Made by a program: the position numbers and the translations under genes. DNA of 64,000 nucleotides from a virus. Under the pieces are notes generated by a model. That model searched no databases. It saw only the letters and a program-made list of their open reading frames with translations, and was not told where the DNA came from. The stretch's first letter is position 1, and each line of letters opens with the position of its first letter. Location of the stretch: positions 96,001 to 160,000 of IMG/VR virus record IMGVR_UViG_3300028840_006907, one strand, 5' to 3'. This document shows, one piece after another, positions 11,048 to 53,189 of the stretch.

Positions 11048-12658
11048 TTAGTACAGAGGCTTTCCTGGTGCTGATCTCATACTCATAGGTCTTGGTATTT
11101 CTTCTTTCGCTGTTTCATCTTCTATAATAGCTATCTCTTCATTGAATTTATATGCTTTTAAATTCTTTTTAGACTGTTCGAAAAAGGTGATAGCTTTATC
11201 GATTTCATCTATAAGTGTTGATGTTTCCGGATTATCCATATTAATAAAGACCTTTTCAATAATACCGCATGTTAATTCTGCTTGTGTAAAATTATTGTTT
11301 AAGCATCGTGTTAGTATTTTTTCCAGATCTTTTTGTAGAGGAAATTCAATATCTTCGAATTTGGTATAGAAGCGTTTTAGTTTATTGAATTTGGACAGCA
11401 TCACGACATATGCCTCATCCCCGGTTCTGGGAGGTTTTATTTCAACTATTTCATCGAATCTCCCTGGTCGGTCAATGATAGTTTTATGGACTAATTCTGT
11501 GTCGTTAATGGTTATTAAAAGAACTATGTTAAGGTTATTATTTGTATCATCTATTTCATTTATAAAAGCTCCAACACGTTCGTTTTTTTCCTTAAATCCA
11601 AGAGCATCGAGATCTTCAATAATAACAAGAGCTGGTTGAATCATCCGAACAAATTGAAAGCACTTTTTTATTCGGTAAACTGTGCTGAATTCTTCAGGAC
11701 CTAGTTTGATAATAGTTATATCCGTAAGGATCTCTTCGAGTTTTTTTATGATAATAGATTTACCGGTACCCTGAAGCCCTATGAATCCGAAACCCCTTTT
11801 ACGATTATACTTTAAAATTTTCCTTATTACTTGTGCAAAAGCAGGAACATCATATTGGTTGATATTCTCTTCAACCTTCTGACGTGGTTTTGTTATAAGG
11901 CCATTTCTGAATTCCAATATATTGTCATGGGTATTAAAGGTGACAATGAAATCTTTTATTATGAGTTCTTCTAGATCGCGGATAATTTCTTCTGCTGAGT
12001 AAGATGAATTTAACGCATATTGTAAATCAAAGTAATATGAGGAAGATATCAACTTTGTGATCTTTAAATCGAACAATATTTTCTCATCATTAAATTCAAC
12101 CAGAATAAGGATCTCATTAAATTCGTGATCGAGTGAAACCTTTTCTAATGGTTTAAAAGAATGATCATAGTAACCTATTATTTTATATCCATTTGTTTTC
12201 GGGCTTTTAAATAGCCAGAATATGATGTCTTCATTTAAATATTTAGTCTCGTAATAACTGACATTATGGATATCCTCTATCTCTAAAAATTCTTTTAATT
12301 TCTTCTGCCTCTTATCATATTCAGAAAGTTCTTTTTGGTTTATTTTATCTATATATTTCTTGATTTTAATACCCATCTCCAGGCCATAGAGTGAAGCCGG
12401 TAAGGTATAGCGAAATAAGTTGAAGGTGTTTTTAAAAGTGAGTTTTCGATTACCATTGGTTAAGAATTTAAATCCTTTATCTAAATCTAAGATAACAGAT
12501 AAAGCTTTTGTGATATCTGCTGGACTTCCGTAATTTTCACCAATAAAATTGAATAAATGATATAGTTTGTGGTTTCTGGGAACCAGATTCATCAGTGATA
12601 TATCTGTTTTGGGATTTTCATCTCCTGCTGTCGTTACTGGCATATTTACTCGTGGCAT
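11048..12658 (-). CDS. AAA+ family ATPase
   Basis: 536 aa; Walker A GLQGTGKS, Walker B VIIEDLD. Confidence 0.7.
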   Translation of the reverse strand: MPRVNMPVTTAGDENPKTDISLMNLVPRNHKLYHLFNFIGENYGSPADITKALSVILDLDKGFKFLTNGNRKLTFKNTFNLFRYTLPASLYGLEMGIKIKKYIDKINQKELSEYDKRQKKLKEFLEIEDIHNVSYYETKYLNEDIIFWLFKSPKTNGYKIIGYYDHSFKPLEKVSLDHEFNEILILVEFNDEKILFDLKITKLISSSYYFDLQYALNSSYSAEEIIRDLEELIIKDFIVTFNTHDNILEFRNGLITKPRQKVEENINQYDVPAFAQVIRKILKYNRKRGFGFIGLQGTGKSIIIKKLEEILTDITIIKLGPEEFSTVYRIKKCFQFVRMIQPALVIIEDLDALGFKEKNERVGAFINEIDDTNNNLNIVLLITINDTELVHKTIIDRPGRFDEIVEIKPPRTGDEAYVVMLSKFNKLKRFYTKFEDIEFPLQKDLEKILTRCLNNNFTQAELTCGIIEKVFINMDNPETSTLIDEIDKAITFFEQSKKNLKAYKFNEEIAIIEDETAKEEIPRPMSMRSAPGKPLY

Positions 12659-15872: not shown

Positions 15873-16282
15873 TGGAGGTGAGGAGAGTTGAACTCCTGTC
15901 CGCGAAGGTATCTTGAGTAAACCTCTACATGTTTAGTCTATGGTTTAAATCTTATTCATAATCACGTTCACAGACAAACTTAATTAAGAACCAGTCTCTA
16001 GTCTCATTCATTGGTCAAGACTCCTCAATGAACCAGAACCCGTTTGGCTATCCGGAATTAACAGGGTTCAGTTAAAACCGGATTTGTCGTTTTTTGTTTA
16101 AACGACGGCTTCTTCTGCTTGATGAATAGCAGCAAGGTTAAGTGCTGAAAACATCGCACAGAAGTTAACTGTATTAGTTTTTTCAGTTATTATTGAAATC
16201 GGCTTTTTTACGAGGCCAACCGATTAACCTCGACATGCAGTTTACATTTCAACTCATCACGTCGAAAACCAAGTACACCCCC
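15873..16282 (-). ncRNA. ssrA: tmRNA (transfer-messenger RNA, ssrA-like)
   Basis: Minus strand 5' GGGGGTGTACTTGGTTTTCGACG..., internal GGTTGGCCTCGTAAAAAAGCCG matching conserved tmRNA pseudoknot/resume region, 3' tRNA-like GGAGTTCAACTCTCCTCACCTCCA. Confidence 0.8.
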
Positions 16283-16382: not shown

Positions 16383-17201
16383 TTAACTTGATAAAGTTAA
16401 GCTTGGCACTTTTTTAATAGTAGTCTCAGTTTTACTCTCTTCAAAACTGACACCAACAGTAGTCTCATAAAAATCATATAATTTCTCTAATTGTTCTTCC
16501 AATCTTTGATTTGATTCAATAGCTATTTCTCTCGCTTGTTTAAACATGTTATAAGCCATTTTTAAATAATCTTCTTTGTTTTCATCGTAAGCTTCACGAA
16601 TTTCTTCCCTTGATACTTCCATTTTATCACTACAATAAAAATTATCAAAAAACTGGCTAGTTAATTCATATAGTATGATAGCTTTTTTCTCAGCATATTC
16701 TTTAAATTCATTATCAGTCATTTTATCAATATGATTTTGTTTAAATGCTGTAATCATGAGTTCTTTGACATCTCTACACATAATTAAATCTACAAGAGTG
16801 GCAAATGCTTTGTAATCTTCATGAGATGTGACATTTTTACTATCTTTAATATGTGGCATAAGAAGTTTACCATAAGTATTAAGCATGGCTGAACGGGAGA
16901 TAATTAATTGTTCTTCAACAGCAGACATTTGAGCTTTAAGAGTTTCCTGATATTTGATATTGCTATATACAGACATCACTTCAATTGTTTTTACCACGGT
17001 TTTTTTGAAATCAATGTTATGAGGGCATTTTTCATGAGGGGATGTTTTTCCTCCTTTTTGTGTCCCCAGTGCGAATACGAAAGATTTACCTATTTTTATA
17101 TATGGTTTTCCAAGAAAAATGATGATTAGTAATGTGATTAGGATAATGAGCAACACAGTCATAAGTTGCCAAAACTCAAATTTACTTAGAAATTCGACCA
17201 T
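16383..17201 (-). CDS. membrane-anchored hypothetical protein
   Basis: 272 aa; N-terminal hydrophobic helix. Confidence 0.5.
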   Translation of the reverse strand: MVEFLSKFEFWQLMTVLLIILITLLIIIFLGKPYIKIGKSFVFALGTQKGGKTSPHEKCPHNIDFKKTVVKTIEVMSVYSNIKYQETLKAQMSAVEEQLIISRSAMLNTYGKLLMPHIKDSKNVTSHEDYKAFATLVDLIMCRDVKELMITAFKQNHIDKMTDNEFKEYAEKKAIILYELTSQFFDNFYCSDKMEVSREEIREAYDENKEDYLKMAYNMFKQAREIAIESNQRLEEQLEKLYDFYETTVGVSFEESKTETTIKKVPSLTLSS

Positions 17202-17300: not shown

Positions 17301-17651
17301 TTAGCTCTTTTTGATGAATTTTTTAGTGAGTGCTGTAAAACGATTGTGTCTAATCTCTTCTTTTTTTGGCTCCATTCTAAGGATCTTATTACTCCATAAA
17401 AATTCGCCTTTTTTTAGTATAAACCATATATCTTCTTCTACTAAATAACCCAATTCAAGATGGTCATGTTTCTTAAATAGTCTCCCTAAAACATTTATAA
17501 TGTCATCTGGAATGATAAAGGTTATGACAGAATTTCTAAGATTTGCTACGAATTGCTTTATTTCGGTTTTTTTTATTGGGTCAATAATTTTTTCTATTAA
17601 AACAGTGACTGTATTTTTTCTTAGAATTTTGTTAGTATAAAAATTGTGCAT
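17301..17651 (-). CDS. hypothetical protein (paralog flanking amidase)
   Basis: Start trimmed to internal ATG with AAGGAG RBS; C-terminus LWSNKILRMEPK...RFTAL paralogous to 18631-18987. Confidence 0.5.
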   Translation of the reverse strand: MHNFYTNKILRKNTVTVLIEKIIDPIKKTEIKQFVANLRNSVITFIIPDDIINVLGRLFKKHDHLELGYLVEEDIWFILKKGEFLWSNKILRMEPKKEEIRHNRFTALTKKFIKKS

Positions 17652-17706
17652 TATTGTTCTCCTTAACAATAATACACAATTTAGGTAAGAAAGATTTAGA
17701 AAAAAA

Positions 17707-18627
17707 TTAAATAATTTTATCCCAGTCGAATCCTGGGCCAATATCAAGTTTTCCATAGCCTCGATAGTTTACATGTGAACAAATTCCCTGGAAAGTCTGA
17801 GCTTCCTCTTTAGAAGGGAATAATCTGTAACGTTTATTCTCTGGAAGTAGTTCATGAGGAATATTGAATCTACTACATAGATAGGCTAATAAGTTACGAA
17901 GAGAGTCATATTGCTCTTCTGTGAAAGTAGCAAAATACGTATATTTGCGAAATGGCGTATCCAATTTAACATAAAATTCATCTTCATTAATGCCACAATA
18001 TTTCGTTCCGTAAACGGTATGTAAGTCTCCATTCTCTCTTACCAATGGGCCTATATTGGATAATTCAATAGCGATACTTCGTTTCGAATTTATACCATTT
18101 CCACCGACAGATCCTCGGCCCAGATGGTATGACCAATATCTTGGATCAAAAAGCTCGTATACAACACCATTTCGGCCTATCACATAAGCCGTAGACATAT
18201 GGACATCCTGCTCAGTCAGAGAGGCTAAATCACTCCGTAAAAACCCAACTGTAAAATGCAAGACTACCATATCTTTATCATATTCTGTCTCATAATAATA
18301 GCCAGTCACACCCTTTGGAGTTAAAATCGATAAAGGGAAAGTGAATGACCCATCTTCTTTCACATCATAAGAGACTCCGTCAGTATCTTTTTTTGTCCTT
18401 TCAAATTTTTCCTCGTGATTAGTAATACCTTCAGGGTACATCATTACCTCCTTTGTCTGATTGGTATTATCCTTTTCTGGTTCTTCTTTAATAGGCTCCG
18501 GCATTAAAGAAGTAGATGCAATAACTGATTCTTTTATTTTTGGTTGATCAGTTATTTTTTTGTTTGACTCGGTATTTGCAAACATTTGGCTTAAAAACCT
18601 GAAAAATGATTCTAATAAATTTTTCAT
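17707..18627 (-). CDS. N-acetylmuramoyl-L-alanine amidase (amidase_2/PGRP-like), endolysin candidate
   Basis: 306 aa; HFTVG...STAYVIGRNG pattern typical of amidase_2. Confidence 0.7.
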   Translation of the reverse strand: MKNLLESFFRFLSQMFANTESNKKITDQPKIKESVIASTSLMPEPIKEEPEKDNTNQTKEVMMYPEGITNHEEKFERTKKDTDGVSYDVKEDGSFTFPLSILTPKGVTGYYYETEYDKDMVVLHFTVGFLRSDLASLTEQDVHMSTAYVIGRNGVVYELFDPRYWSYHLGRGSVGGNGINSKRSIAIELSNIGPLVRENGDLHTVYGTKYCGINEDEFYVKLDTPFRKYTYFATFTEEQYDSLRNLLAYLCSRFNIPHELLPENKRYRLFPSKEEAQTFQGICSHVNYRGYGKLDIGPGFDWDKII

Positions 18628-18630
18628 AGT

Positions 18631-18987
18631 TTAACCTCCTTCCTTTATAAGTGCAGTATACCGATTGAACCTTTTCTTTGGTTCTGATTTTACTTCTTTA
18701 GGTTTTTCTGTAGTGATTTTAAAGTTACTCCATAGAATTTCCTCACCTAGAATCACAAACCATAATCTGTGTTTTCGGATATAACCTACATCACATATAT
18801 TATTTTTAAGAAGTACTTGATTAATTTTATAAAGAGTACCATTTGGTATCTTTAAACTAATCGTCCTATCTACATTGCGTGCATAAGTATCACCACCCTC
18901 CGTAAAAAGTAATACTTTGTTATAAGTGTCTTGTAATTCATCTATGGGAACATAAATAGGAAATTTTTTACTCATAATTCTACCCAA
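18631..18987 (-). CDS. hypothetical protein (paralog flanking amidase)
   Basis: 118 aa; C-terminus LWSNFKITTEKPK...RFNRYTAL. Confidence 0.5.
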   Translation of the reverse strand: MGRIMSKKFPIYVPIDELQDTYNKVLLFTEGGDTYARNVDRTISLKIPNGTLYKINQVLLKNNICDVGYIRKHRLWFVILGEEILWSNFKITTEKPKEVKSEPKKRFNRYTALIKEGG

Positions 18988-19305
18988 TTCATTATATATT
19001 TAAAATTCACCCTCAATACATTATACAAGATGTATAAGAGAGAAATTTGGTACTATTTTACTTTTTGAATATATTTAAGAGTACATCTTCAACTTTTTGC
19101 TTTGTAAGTTTTGTCTTTTTAGTGGCATATAGATATTGAATATCCAATAAATATTTCTTGGCTTCATTCATCTCATTTGAGGTATCTGTCTTTGATGTTT
19201 TTAAGTCCATAAGGTTAAAAAATAAAATTAAAGGATTATTACAGAAATTAATTATATTAAAAACAGATTTATAAAGAAAAAAACCATATTTACAAGAGAA
19301 CTACC

Positions 19306-53115: not shown

Positions 53116-53189
53116 GCGCCTGAGGCTCTGAGGTGAGCAACTTGGACTCTAAATCCAAGTTTTTCAGGGTTCGACTCCCTACAGGCGCA
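53116..53189 (+). tRNA. suppressor tRNA (anticodon CTA, reads UAG)
   Basis: Hand fold: acceptor GCGCCTG/CAGGCGC, anticodon stem TTGGA/TCCAA, loop CTCTAAA (U33, CUA, A37), T-loop TTCGACT. Confidence 0.65.

What the first reader, a model, noticed from the sequence alone, without database searches (positions are those of the whole stretch)
17301..18987. Endolysin-like amidase flanked by two paralogous small proteins
The amidase_2 gene sits between two paralogs (17301-17651 and 18631-18987) sharing the C-terminal motif LWSNxxxxxEPK...RF(N)RxTAL. The upstream paralog is in frame with the amidase and separated by a stop plus one codon. They may be lysis regulators, immunity-like partners or remnants of domain duplication.
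Basis: seen in the sequence. Interest (0 to 1): 0.45.

Follow-up and report, generated by a model that had tools for sequence, protein, structure and literature searches.

The report
Paralogous tagged partners flanking phage amidase
In a huge bacteriophage genome, a cell-wall-cutting enzyme is flanked by two real, related small genes of a rare new family, and their shared tail motif is a portable seven-residue tag also carried by unrelated phage proteins, but what it binds is unknown.

Summary
All three genes lie on the minus strand: smallA (18975-18631, 114 aa), an amidase_2 enzyme (18627-17707, 306 aa) and smallB (17651-17301, 116 aa). A and B are true paralogs (BLASTP E=2e-11; z=16 against shuffles, z=12 without the C-terminal motif). 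The in-frame "stop plus one codon" junction is real but is ordinary translational coupling and is not conserved in relatives.

The family is tiny: 25 clusters among 1.8 billion representative proteins. Every locus recovered comes from relatives of this about 470-kb tRNA-rich phage. A family member always sits beside a peptidoglycan hydrolase, either amidase_2 or, in two contigs, an unrelated M15 peptidase preceded by two tandem family members.

Each protein is an about 85-aa alpha/beta domain with no significant fold match, then a variable linker, then a near-invariant FNR[YF]TAL peptide. That peptide also ends unrelated proteins in related contigs (zinc ribbons, a 141-aa protein, a capsid-like 322-aa protein).

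Best reading (about 0.35): co-translated, non-catalytic partners of the phage wall hydrolase that use a clade-wide docking tag. Cell-wall-binding folds and a duplicated amidase domain are not supported. Function remains inferred.

The parts
18631..18975 (-). smallA: 114-aa paralog upstream of the amidase (coordinates include the TAA stop). An about 85-aa alpha/beta domain, then a basic linker, then the FNRYTAL tag.
   Evidence: ORF and sequence. Orthologues P0003-P0005 and P0129 at 49-70% identity start at the same MSKK/MNKK. AlphaFold2 model pLDDT 76, with residues about 90-114 disordered. pN/pS 0.30-0.33.
18649..18669 (-). FNRYTAL tag of smallA (7 codons), 5 residues before the stop.
   Evidence: Regex on the six-frame translation. 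Near-invariant across 27 family members. Synonymous codons differ between loci.
18635..18639 (-). GGAGG Shine-Dalgarno sequence of the amidase, lying inside the last codons of smallA. The junction reads TAA-ACT-ATG.
   Evidence: Read directly from the sequence. The junction is a short spacer or an overlap in all related loci.
17707..18627 (-). Amidase_2 (AmpD/AmiD-type zinc N-acetylmuramoyl-L-alanine amidase), 306 aa. It has an N-terminal amphipathic helix, a Pro/Glu-rich linker and an about 245-aa catalytic core.
   Evidence: PF01510 E=5.4e-13. PHROG amidase/endolysin families. 286 homologues. H124, E188, H285 and D295 are invariant and K293 nearly so in 23 homologues. A profile of the alignment hits AmiD, AmpDh2 and AmpD in the PDB.
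17659..17664 (-). AAGGAG Shine-Dalgarno sequence of smallB, 7 nt upstream of its ATG.
   Evidence: Read directly from the sequence.
17301..17651 (-). smallB: 116-aa paralog downstream of the amidase, with the same domain-linker-tag layout (tag HNRFTAL).
   Evidence: Orthologues are P0006, L001 7118-7462 and L004 6971-7300. AlphaFold2 model pLDDT 79 with the same strand/helix order as smallA. pN/pS 0.38-0.49.
17328..17348 (-). HNRFTAL tag of smallB; orthologues have FNRFTAL or FNRYTAL.
16383..17201 (-). Context only: a 272-aa protein with one N-terminal transmembrane segment, next gene downstream on the same strand. It is the only membrane-protein candidate near the module and its membership in the module is unproven.
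   Evidence: Hydropathy scan. No Pfam, PHROG, NCBIfam or PADLOC hit. It does not occupy this position in the related loci inspected.

Best explanation
smallA and smallB are paralogous, non-catalytic partner proteins of the phage's peptidoglycan-hydrolase module. Each has a compact alpha/beta domain of about 85 residues. A flexible linker of variable length follows, and then a C-terminal FNR[YF]TAL peptide.

Shown:
- smallA is translationally coupled to the hydrolase.
- smallB has its own ribosome-binding site on the same strand, 55 nt downstream of the hydrolase.
- The pairing with a wall hydrolase survives replacement of the catalytic domain type.
- The tag is a modular, protein-level element shared with unrelated proteins in related contigs.

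Inferred:
- The small proteins are made together with the hydrolase and bind it, or bind each other.
- Through the tethered peptide they connect it to a common, still unidentified receptor, controlling where or when the enzyme acts.

The nearest functional analogy is the chaperone-like Gp1 encoded just upstream of lysA in mycobacteriophage Ms6.
For: Association with the hydrolase:
- The order A-amidase-B is kept in the window, L004 and L005. In L001 it is kept despite a 468-aa TnpB-like insertion.
- A precedes the amidase in L002, L003, L006/L007, L011/L012 and L080. It is also present in L013 and L151, where the next ORF is cut at the contig end.
- In L010 and L150, two tandem family members precede a Peptidase_M15_3 instead of an amidase_2.
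- A-to-hydrolase junctions are overlaps of 1-4 nt or spacers of 3-14 nt (same calls).

The proteins:
- Two independent AlphaFold2 models give the same fold with a disordered tail.
- There are no transmembrane or signal segments.
- The linker varies from 0 to about 40 residues while the tag is near-invariant.
- Tag codons vary synonymously between loci.

The amidase:
- Its catalytic residues are intact.
- No binding domain was detected; its only Pfam match is Amidase_2.

The analogy:
- For Gp1 of Ms6, see PMC3111421.
Against: - All loci come from one syntenic block (AAA_33 kinase, CCA-adding enzyme, small protein, hydrolase, AAA ATPase) in related phages. Adjacency could therefore be inherited gene order rather than function.
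- L009 has the amidase in this block without any family member.
- The tag also sits on zinc-ribbon and capsid-like proteins with no link to the cell wall. Its receptor therefore need not be the hydrolase.
- No holin or spanin is evident beside the module in the window, so even the endolysin role of the amidase is presumed.
Confidence: 0.35

Rival explanations
1. Tag-and-hub system unrelated to lysis. A and B are just two of many FNR[YF]TAL-tagged proteins that dock on a common phage or host receptor, for example the conserved neighbouring Cdc48-like AAA ATPase, a capsid or compartment, or a replication hub. Their position beside the hydrolase would then be inherited synteny.
For: - The same tag ends at least four unrelated N-terminal modules: L010 13732-13926, L011 10264-10542, L070 3414-3614, L054 8007-8432 and L096 5426-6394.
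- The L096 protein weakly matches a major head protein PHROG (E=7e-4).
- A 530-aa AAA ATPase with Cdc48/p97-like best PDB matches is a conserved neighbour.
- L009 keeps the amidase without the family.
Against: - The hydrolase type is swapped (amidase_2 to M15) while the family stays immediately upstream.
- smallA is tightly translationally coupled to the hydrolase.
- No receptor has been identified.
Confidence: 0.25
2. Separately encoded cell-wall-binding subunits, as PlyCB is for the catalytic chain PlyCA of the streptococcal phage lysin PlyC. They would give the domain-poor hydrolase its affinity for the wall after release.
For: - The amidase and the M15 enzymes show no detected binding domain, whereas some bacterial homologues of the amidase carry LysM.
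- The small genes are adjacent to the catalytic gene.
- A non-significant B-profile hit to choline-binding repeats of Pce (2bib, E=3.2) aligns GYLxxxxIWFIL with GWxxxxxWYYL.
Against: - No Pfam hit to any wall-binding family in any of 27 members, even at E<=10.
- No structural match to PlyCB, SH3b, LysM or choline-binding folds.
- The tag on zinc-ribbon and capsid-like proteins does not fit a wall-binding role.
Confidence: 0.08
3. Single-domain relatives of the beta sliding clamp. FNRYTAL would correspond to the FPDYRRVLP interdomain connector, so that subunits dock head-to-tail into a ring or hub that other tagged proteins also bind.
For: - The top, non-significant hit of the family profile against 177,635 PDB sequences is a beta clamp (7ybd_A, E=0.51). 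It aligns 48 columns at the IP-helix-strand region of domain II.
- E. coli DnaN has ...FIFTSKLVDGRFPDYRRVLP against ...ILWSNFKITT...RFNRYTAL in smallA.
Against: - hhalign of the family against an 8-sequence DnaN domain II alignment gives P=0.024 over 31 columns and nothing for domains I and III. Clamp domains score 88-97% probability against each other.
- All structural scores are below significance.
- The A-only and B-only profiles do not recover clamps.
Confidence: 0.07

Closest known systems
Gp1 of mycobacteriophage Ms6 (chaperone-like protein encoded upstream of the endolysin gene lysA)
   Same: Both are small soluble proteins encoded immediately upstream of an amidase-type lysin. Gp1 binds the lysin's N-terminal region and is needed for efficient lysis (PMC3111421). 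The gene position and the presumed stoichiometric co-expression match smallA.
   Different: There is no detectable sequence or fold relationship. Here there are two paralogs, flanking or tandem, each with a tethered C-terminal tag that is shared with unrelated proteins. Binding to the hydrolase is untested.
PlyC two-gene lysin (PlyCA catalytic chain plus PlyCB wall-binding subunit) of streptococcal phage C1
   Same: The lysin function is split between a catalytic gene and a separately encoded small (about 70-115 aa) non-catalytic protein in the same cassette. This comparison rests on established knowledge, not on a test here.
AmpD/AmiD/AmpDh2 amidase_2 enzymes and T7-lysozyme-type phage amidases
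   Same: The central gene is a member. It scores above the Pfam threshold. The zinc-ligand and catalytic positions (H124, E188, H285, D295, with K293 nearly invariant) are conserved. A profile of the alignment hits AmiD, AmpDh2 and AmpD.
   Different: The huge-phage versions add an N-terminal amphipathic helix and a Pro/Glu-rich linker. They have no detected signal peptide, lipobox, LysM or PG_binding domain.
Portable C-terminal docking peptides on flexible linkers (encapsulin cargo-loading peptides, SSB C-terminal tip, clamp-binding motifs, the FtsZ C-terminal peptide)
   Same: The architecture matches: a variable disordered linker followed by a short, strongly conserved peptide, carried by otherwise unrelated proteins.
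   Different: The sequence FNR[YF]TAL matches none of these motifs as I recall them. The receptor is unknown.
N-terminal cytoplasmic tail of class B penicillin-binding proteins (E. coli PBP2 tail binds MreB)
   Same: The exact heptapeptide FNRYTAL sits in the cytoplasmic tail, at the start of the transmembrane helix, of class B PBPs from several Clostridia. E. coli PBP2 begins MKLQNSFRDYTAESAL, sharing F..YTA. That tail binds MreB directly (PMC13327600).
   Different: In the PBPs the motif is N-terminal and runs into a membrane helix. In the phage proteins it is C-terminal and soluble. The resemblance may be chance, and the phage's host and its PBPs are unknown.

Membership tests
Amidase_2 / AmpD-AmiD zinc amidases (central gene) | Pfam PF01510 match above the gathering score | tested here: met
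   49.9 bits against a cut-off of 26, E=5.4e-13.
Amidase_2 / AmpD-AmiD zinc amidases (central gene) | Zinc ligands (His, His, Asp/Cys) and catalytic Glu/Lys conserved | tested here: met
   H124, E188, H285 and D295 are invariant and K293 is at least 90% conserved in 23 homologues. The alignment to AmiD 2bh7 covers these blocks.
Canonical endolysin in a lysis cassette | Adjacent holin, spanin or other small membrane proteins | tested here: inconclusive
   In the window, the only nearby membrane candidate is a 272-aa single-pass protein downstream. A 64-aa transmembrane ORF precedes smallA in L006, L011, L013 and L151, and a different one does so in L010.
Canonical endolysin in a lysis cassette | Export signal (signal peptide or signal-anchor-release domain) or a recognised wall-binding domain | tested here: not met
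   Amidase_2 is the only Pfam family matched at E<=1. The alignment shows an amphipathic N-terminal helix and a Pro/Glu-rich linker rather than a hydrophobic signal, judged by eye because no signal-peptide predictor was run. The hydropathy scan found no transmembrane segment in the amidase.
PlyCB-like lysin binding subunit | Sequence or fold similarity to PlyCB | tested here: not met
PlyCB-like lysin binding subunit | Binds the cell wall and assembles with the catalytic chain | not testable with these tools
   Needs biochemistry or multimer modelling.
Ms6 Gp1-like lysin chaperone | Small gene directly upstream of the lysin and translationally linked to it | tested here: met
   smallA's stop is 3 nt before the amidase ATG, and the Shine-Dalgarno sequence lies inside smallA. 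Relatives show overlaps.
Ms6 Gp1-like lysin chaperone | Homology to Gp1, or binding to the lysin's N-terminal region | tested here: inconclusive
   No PHROG or Pfam family matches smallA or smallB, so no homology to any catalogued phage family was seen. Binding was not testable.
Known wall-binding repeats and domains (LysM, SH3b, PG_binding_1, CW_binding_1, CW_7) | Profile match in any family member | tested here: not met
   All 27 members were scanned against Pfam at E<=10 and none matched these families. The only trace is a B-profile hit to choline-binding repeats at E=3.2.
Beta sliding clamp (DnaN) domain | Significant profile-profile or structural similarity to a clamp domain | tested here: inconclusive
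Duplicated domain of the amidase itself | Detectable similarity between the small family and the amidase | tested here: not met
   hhalign probability 0.1%.

The most novel reading that the evidence does not exclude
FNR[YF]TAL is an address tag used across this clade of huge phages. It mimics the cytoplasmic tail of class B penicillin-binding proteins, which in E. coli PBP2 binds MreB. The tag would dock tagged phage proteins, including the two partners of the wall hydrolase, onto the host's cell-wall synthesis machinery. The phage could thereby position or time wall degradation, or hijack the elongation machinery.
Probability: 0.07. Interest if true: 0.85.

Novelty: new variant of a known kind. 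Interest (0 to 1): 0.5.

Why it matters
Lysis in huge phages is almost uncharacterised, and wall hydrolases with no detected binding domain raise the question of how they are controlled and targeted.

A conserved pair of small partners that stays with the hydrolase when its catalytic type is swapped gives a concrete, testable candidate for that control.

Separately, a seven-residue C-terminal tag shared by unrelated proteins would be a protein-addressing code in these phages. Finding its receptor could reveal an organising hub, whether capsid, unfoldase, clamp-like ring or host cytoskeleton, and would supply a ready-made affinity handle.

If none of this holds, the result is still a clean definition of a new, very rare protein family.

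Tried and rejected
- **Read-through or fusion of smallA with the amidase.** Rejected. The stop is TAA, while the window's suppressor-type tRNA reads TAG. The in-frame arrangement is absent in L001, L002, L005, L006 and L011-L013.
- **Stop-codon recoding in the window.** ORF totals under alternative codes gave no sign of it.
- **Duplicated amidase domain.** hhalign probability 0.1%.
- **Known families.** Pfam, PHROGs and NCBIfam gave nothing for the small proteins. PADLOC gave only a weak typeIV_Cas11 hit for smallB (E=7.6e-4), which I did not pursue and consider noise.
- **Reference phage collections.** The family is absent from INPHARED (tblastn) and from IMG/VR.
- **Metagenome and genome DNA-pattern scans.** These were mostly chance hits. 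The genome scan served as a negative control: none of its 75 in-frame motifs is C-terminal.
- **Clamp-domain homology.** Suggestive but not significant.

Full report
**1. What is there**

The window is 33.9% G+C. It carries 34 tRNA genes, a tmRNA and a tRNA with anticodon CTA. The small proteins occur on a 469,617-bp contig. No record in the reference phage collection is similar at the DNA level apart from tRNA genes and one short match. This is a stretch of a huge, uncultivated phage.

The finding's three genes all lie on the minus strand:
- smallA, 18975-18631, 114 aa. The ORF list starts it at a TTG at 18987, but the ATG at 18975 is the start shared with orthologues.
- An amidase_2 gene, 18627-17707, 306 aa (PF01510, E=5.4e-13).
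- smallB, 17651-17301, 116 aa, preceded by AAGGAG plus 7 nt.

**2.

- BLASTP of smallA against smallB gives E=2e-11, with 31% identity over 91 residues.
- The local alignment score is 113, against 29.5 +/- 5.2 for 2000 shuffles (z=16). With the C-terminal motif removed, z is still 11.8. The refutation condition, similarity limited to low-complexity sequence, is therefore not met.
- There is no third copy in the window.
- Orthologue pairs give pN/pS of 0.30-0.49 at near-saturated synonymous sites, so both are real genes under purifying selection.

The junction is as described: GGA GGT TAA ACT ATG.
- The amidase's GGAGG ribosome-binding site lies inside smallA's last codons, which is ordinary translational coupling.
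- The stop is TAA, whereas the window's suppressor-type tRNA would read TAG.
- In relatives the junction is a 4-nt overlap, a 1-nt overlap, a 14-nt spacer or the same 3-nt spacer.
- Being in frame carries no meaning.

**3. A rare family tied to a wall hydrolase**

A word-indexed search of 5.8 billion proteins found only six members. An exhaustive HMMER search of 1.84 billion cluster representatives found 25 hits at E<=1e-3. Two of those are long multi-stretch hits that I left out of the family alignment. The family is absent from INPHARED and IMG/VR.

The members split into an upstream type (A) and a downstream type (B). Gene order in the recovered loci is:

| Locus | Arrangement |
|---|---|
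| window, L004, L005 | A - amidase - B |
| L001 | A - amidase - 468-aa TnpB-like ORF - B |
| L002, L003 | A - amidase, contig ends |
| L006/L007, L011/L012 | distant A (tag LNRYNAL) overlapping the amidase start |
| L013, L151 | distant A, then an ORF cut at the contig end |
| L080 | A - amidase |
| L010 | two tandem members (164 and 131 aa) - Peptidase_M15_3 |
| L150 | two tandem members (163 and 142 aa) - 62-aa ORF - Peptidase_M15_3 |
| L009 | amidase with no family member |

The replacement of the catalytic domain in L010 and L150, with the small pair retained, is the best argument that the link to wall hydrolysis is functional.

The caveat is that all these loci share one syntenic block: AAA_33 kinase, CCA-adding enzyme, small protein, hydrolase, AAA ATPase. 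They are therefore not independent observations.

**4. The hydrolase**

- Twenty-three homologues keep H124, E188, H285 and D295 invariant, and K293 nearly so.
- A profile of the alignment hits AmiD, AmpDh2 and AmpD in the PDB.
- About 250-aa bacterial homologues share 43-55% identity over the core, and some carry LysM.
- Most of the closest, presumably phage, homologues add an N-terminal amphipathic helix and a Pro/Glu-rich linker. The L003 and L004 amidases (P0011, P0013) lack it.
- Amidase_2 is the only Pfam family the protein matches, and the hydropathy scan found no transmembrane segment in it. No dedicated signal-peptide predictor was run.
- In the window, the only nearby membrane candidate is a 272-aa single-pass protein downstream.
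- An endolysin role is likely but presumed.

**5. Anatomy of the small proteins**

- AlphaFold2 models of A (pLDDT 76) and B (pLDDT 79) were built from different alignments. They agree on a short N-terminal helix, three strands, a helix, three strands and then a disordered tail.
- Across 27 members the domain keeps IP...GYI...LW[YF]xL...LWS[NS]. The linker varies from 0 to about 40 residues. The peptide FNR[YF]TAL is near-invariant and lies 2-30 residues before the stop.
- Codons of the peptide differ at synonymous sites between loci, so selection acts on the peptide rather than on the DNA.

**6. The motif is a portable tag**

The same peptide ends unrelated proteins in related contigs:
- zinc-ribbon proteins in L010 (13732-13926), L011/L012 (10264-10542 in L011) and L070 (3414-3614);
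- a 141-aa protein in L054;
- a 322-aa protein in L096 with a weak match to a major head protein PHROG (E=7e-4).

As a control, 120 matches of the same DNA pattern in bacterial and archaeal genomes gave 75 in-frame motifs. None of them lies within 15 residues of a stop in an ORF of at least 60 aa.

**7. Interpretation**

I commit, at about 0.35, to A and B being co-expressed non-catalytic partners of the wall hydrolase that use a clade-wide docking tag. The closest functional analogue is Gp1 of mycobacteriophage Ms6. It is encoded just upstream of lysA, binds the lysin and is needed for efficient lysis (PMC3111421).

Shown:
- paralogy;
- conservation;
- translational coupling of smallA to the hydrolase;
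- persistence through the catalytic-type swap;
- modularity of the tag.

Inferred:
- physical binding;
- a regulatory or targeting role.

Rivals:
- a tag-and-hub system unrelated to lysis (0.25);
- PlyCB-like wall-binding subunits (0.08);
- single clamp-like domains whose tag corresponds to the DnaN interdomain connector (0.07).

The clamp lead rests on recurrent but sub-threshold signals:
- PDB profile top hit 7ybd_A at E=0.51;
- hhalign P=0.024 against domain II only, while clamp domains match one another at 88-97% probability.

"Remnant of a duplicated amidase domain" is rejected (hhalign probability 0.1%).

**8. A speculative lead**

- The exact heptapeptide FNRYTAL occurs in the cytoplasmic N-terminal tail of class B PBPs of several Clostridia.
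- E. coli PBP2 begins MKLQNSFRDYTAESAL.
- That tail binds MreB directly (PMC13327600).
- Mimicry of this tail would connect the tag to the wall-synthesis machinery. The resemblance may be chance, and I rate this reading at about 0.07.

**9. Verdict**

The novelty lies in a rare, phage-clade-specific family and its portable tag. Function remains inferred and needs multimer modelling and simple biochemistry.

Noticed in passing
window 2426-53189 (tRNAs); tmRNA at 15873-16282 (-); tRNA with anticodon CTA at 53116-53189 (+): There are 34 tRNA genes, a tmRNA and an amber-suppressor-type tRNA (called tRNA-Pyl by ARAGORN) in 64 kb. A crude ORF-length comparison under alternative codes showed no sign of stop-codon recoding in this window.
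   Followed up: partly
window 19061-19192 (-), inside ORF 19058-19210: This 50-aa ORF is only the C-terminal remnant (residues 443-486, 55% identity) of the roughly 500-aa CCA-adding enzyme that sits intact upstream of smallA in L001-L004, L006, L009, L013, L080 and L151. No full-length copy is in the window.
   Followed up: partly
L001 5731-7137 (+): A 468-aa ORF with a faint Cas12f1-like/TnpB zinc-finger hit is inserted between the amidase and smallB and overlaps smallB's start. It looks like a mobile-element insertion inside the module.
   Followed up: no
L005 1957-2361 (+): An HNH_3 endonuclease gene lies directly downstream of smallB in the closest relative of this locus.
   Followed up: no
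L006 4430-4624, L011 3866-4060, L013 1899-2093, L151 1835-2029; L010 6826-7020: A conserved 64-aa protein with an N-terminal transmembrane segment (MRIK..LLLLLIILFSVLF..) lies just upstream of the distant smallA members. L010 has a different 64-aa protein with CxxC pairs and a C-terminal transmembrane segment. These are possible holin candidates, and none is present at this position in the window.
   Followed up: partly
window 11048-12658 (-); L004 8713-10329; L006 6907-8496; L010 9373-10980; L011 6118-7719: An AAA ATPase of about 530 aa, whose ATPase domain best matches Cdc48/p97/VAT D2 domains in the PDB, is a conserved neighbour downstream of the hydrolase module. It is a candidate receptor for the tag, untested.
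   Followed up: partly
P0133, P0141, P0144; L150 656-1084: Some family members carry a second short conserved motif, [RN]RKI[QNT][WF]K(D), at the extreme C-terminus after the FNRYTAL tag.
   Followed up: no
L225 2-2722 (-), L265, L227 5264-7999 (+), L232, L095; L280 3039-3218 (-): Class B penicillin-binding proteins of several Clostridia have KK-FNRYTAL at the cytoplasmic start of their membrane helix. E. coli PBP2 has FRDYTAE in its MreB-binding tail.
   Followed up: partly
L033, L036, L037, L045, L049 and about 10 more metagenome loci: A recurrent, near-identical short ORF (...LADADTWTSASRM.YGHLS.RAPPKLDLFGDRSY.TFNRFTALNQK) accounts for many of the pattern hits. It is probably a conserved non-coding or rRNA-like sequence read in frame and is unrelated to the finding.
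   Followed up: no
phage records H39-H44 (e.g. Burkholderia phage Bcep43 10338-10853, Vibrio phages): Several phages give tblastn matches covering only part of E. coli DnaN (about residues 121-306), mostly under features annotated as hypothetical protein or RusA-like resolvase. The length of those genes was not checked; if short, stand-alone clamp-domain proteins already exist in phages.
   Followed up: no
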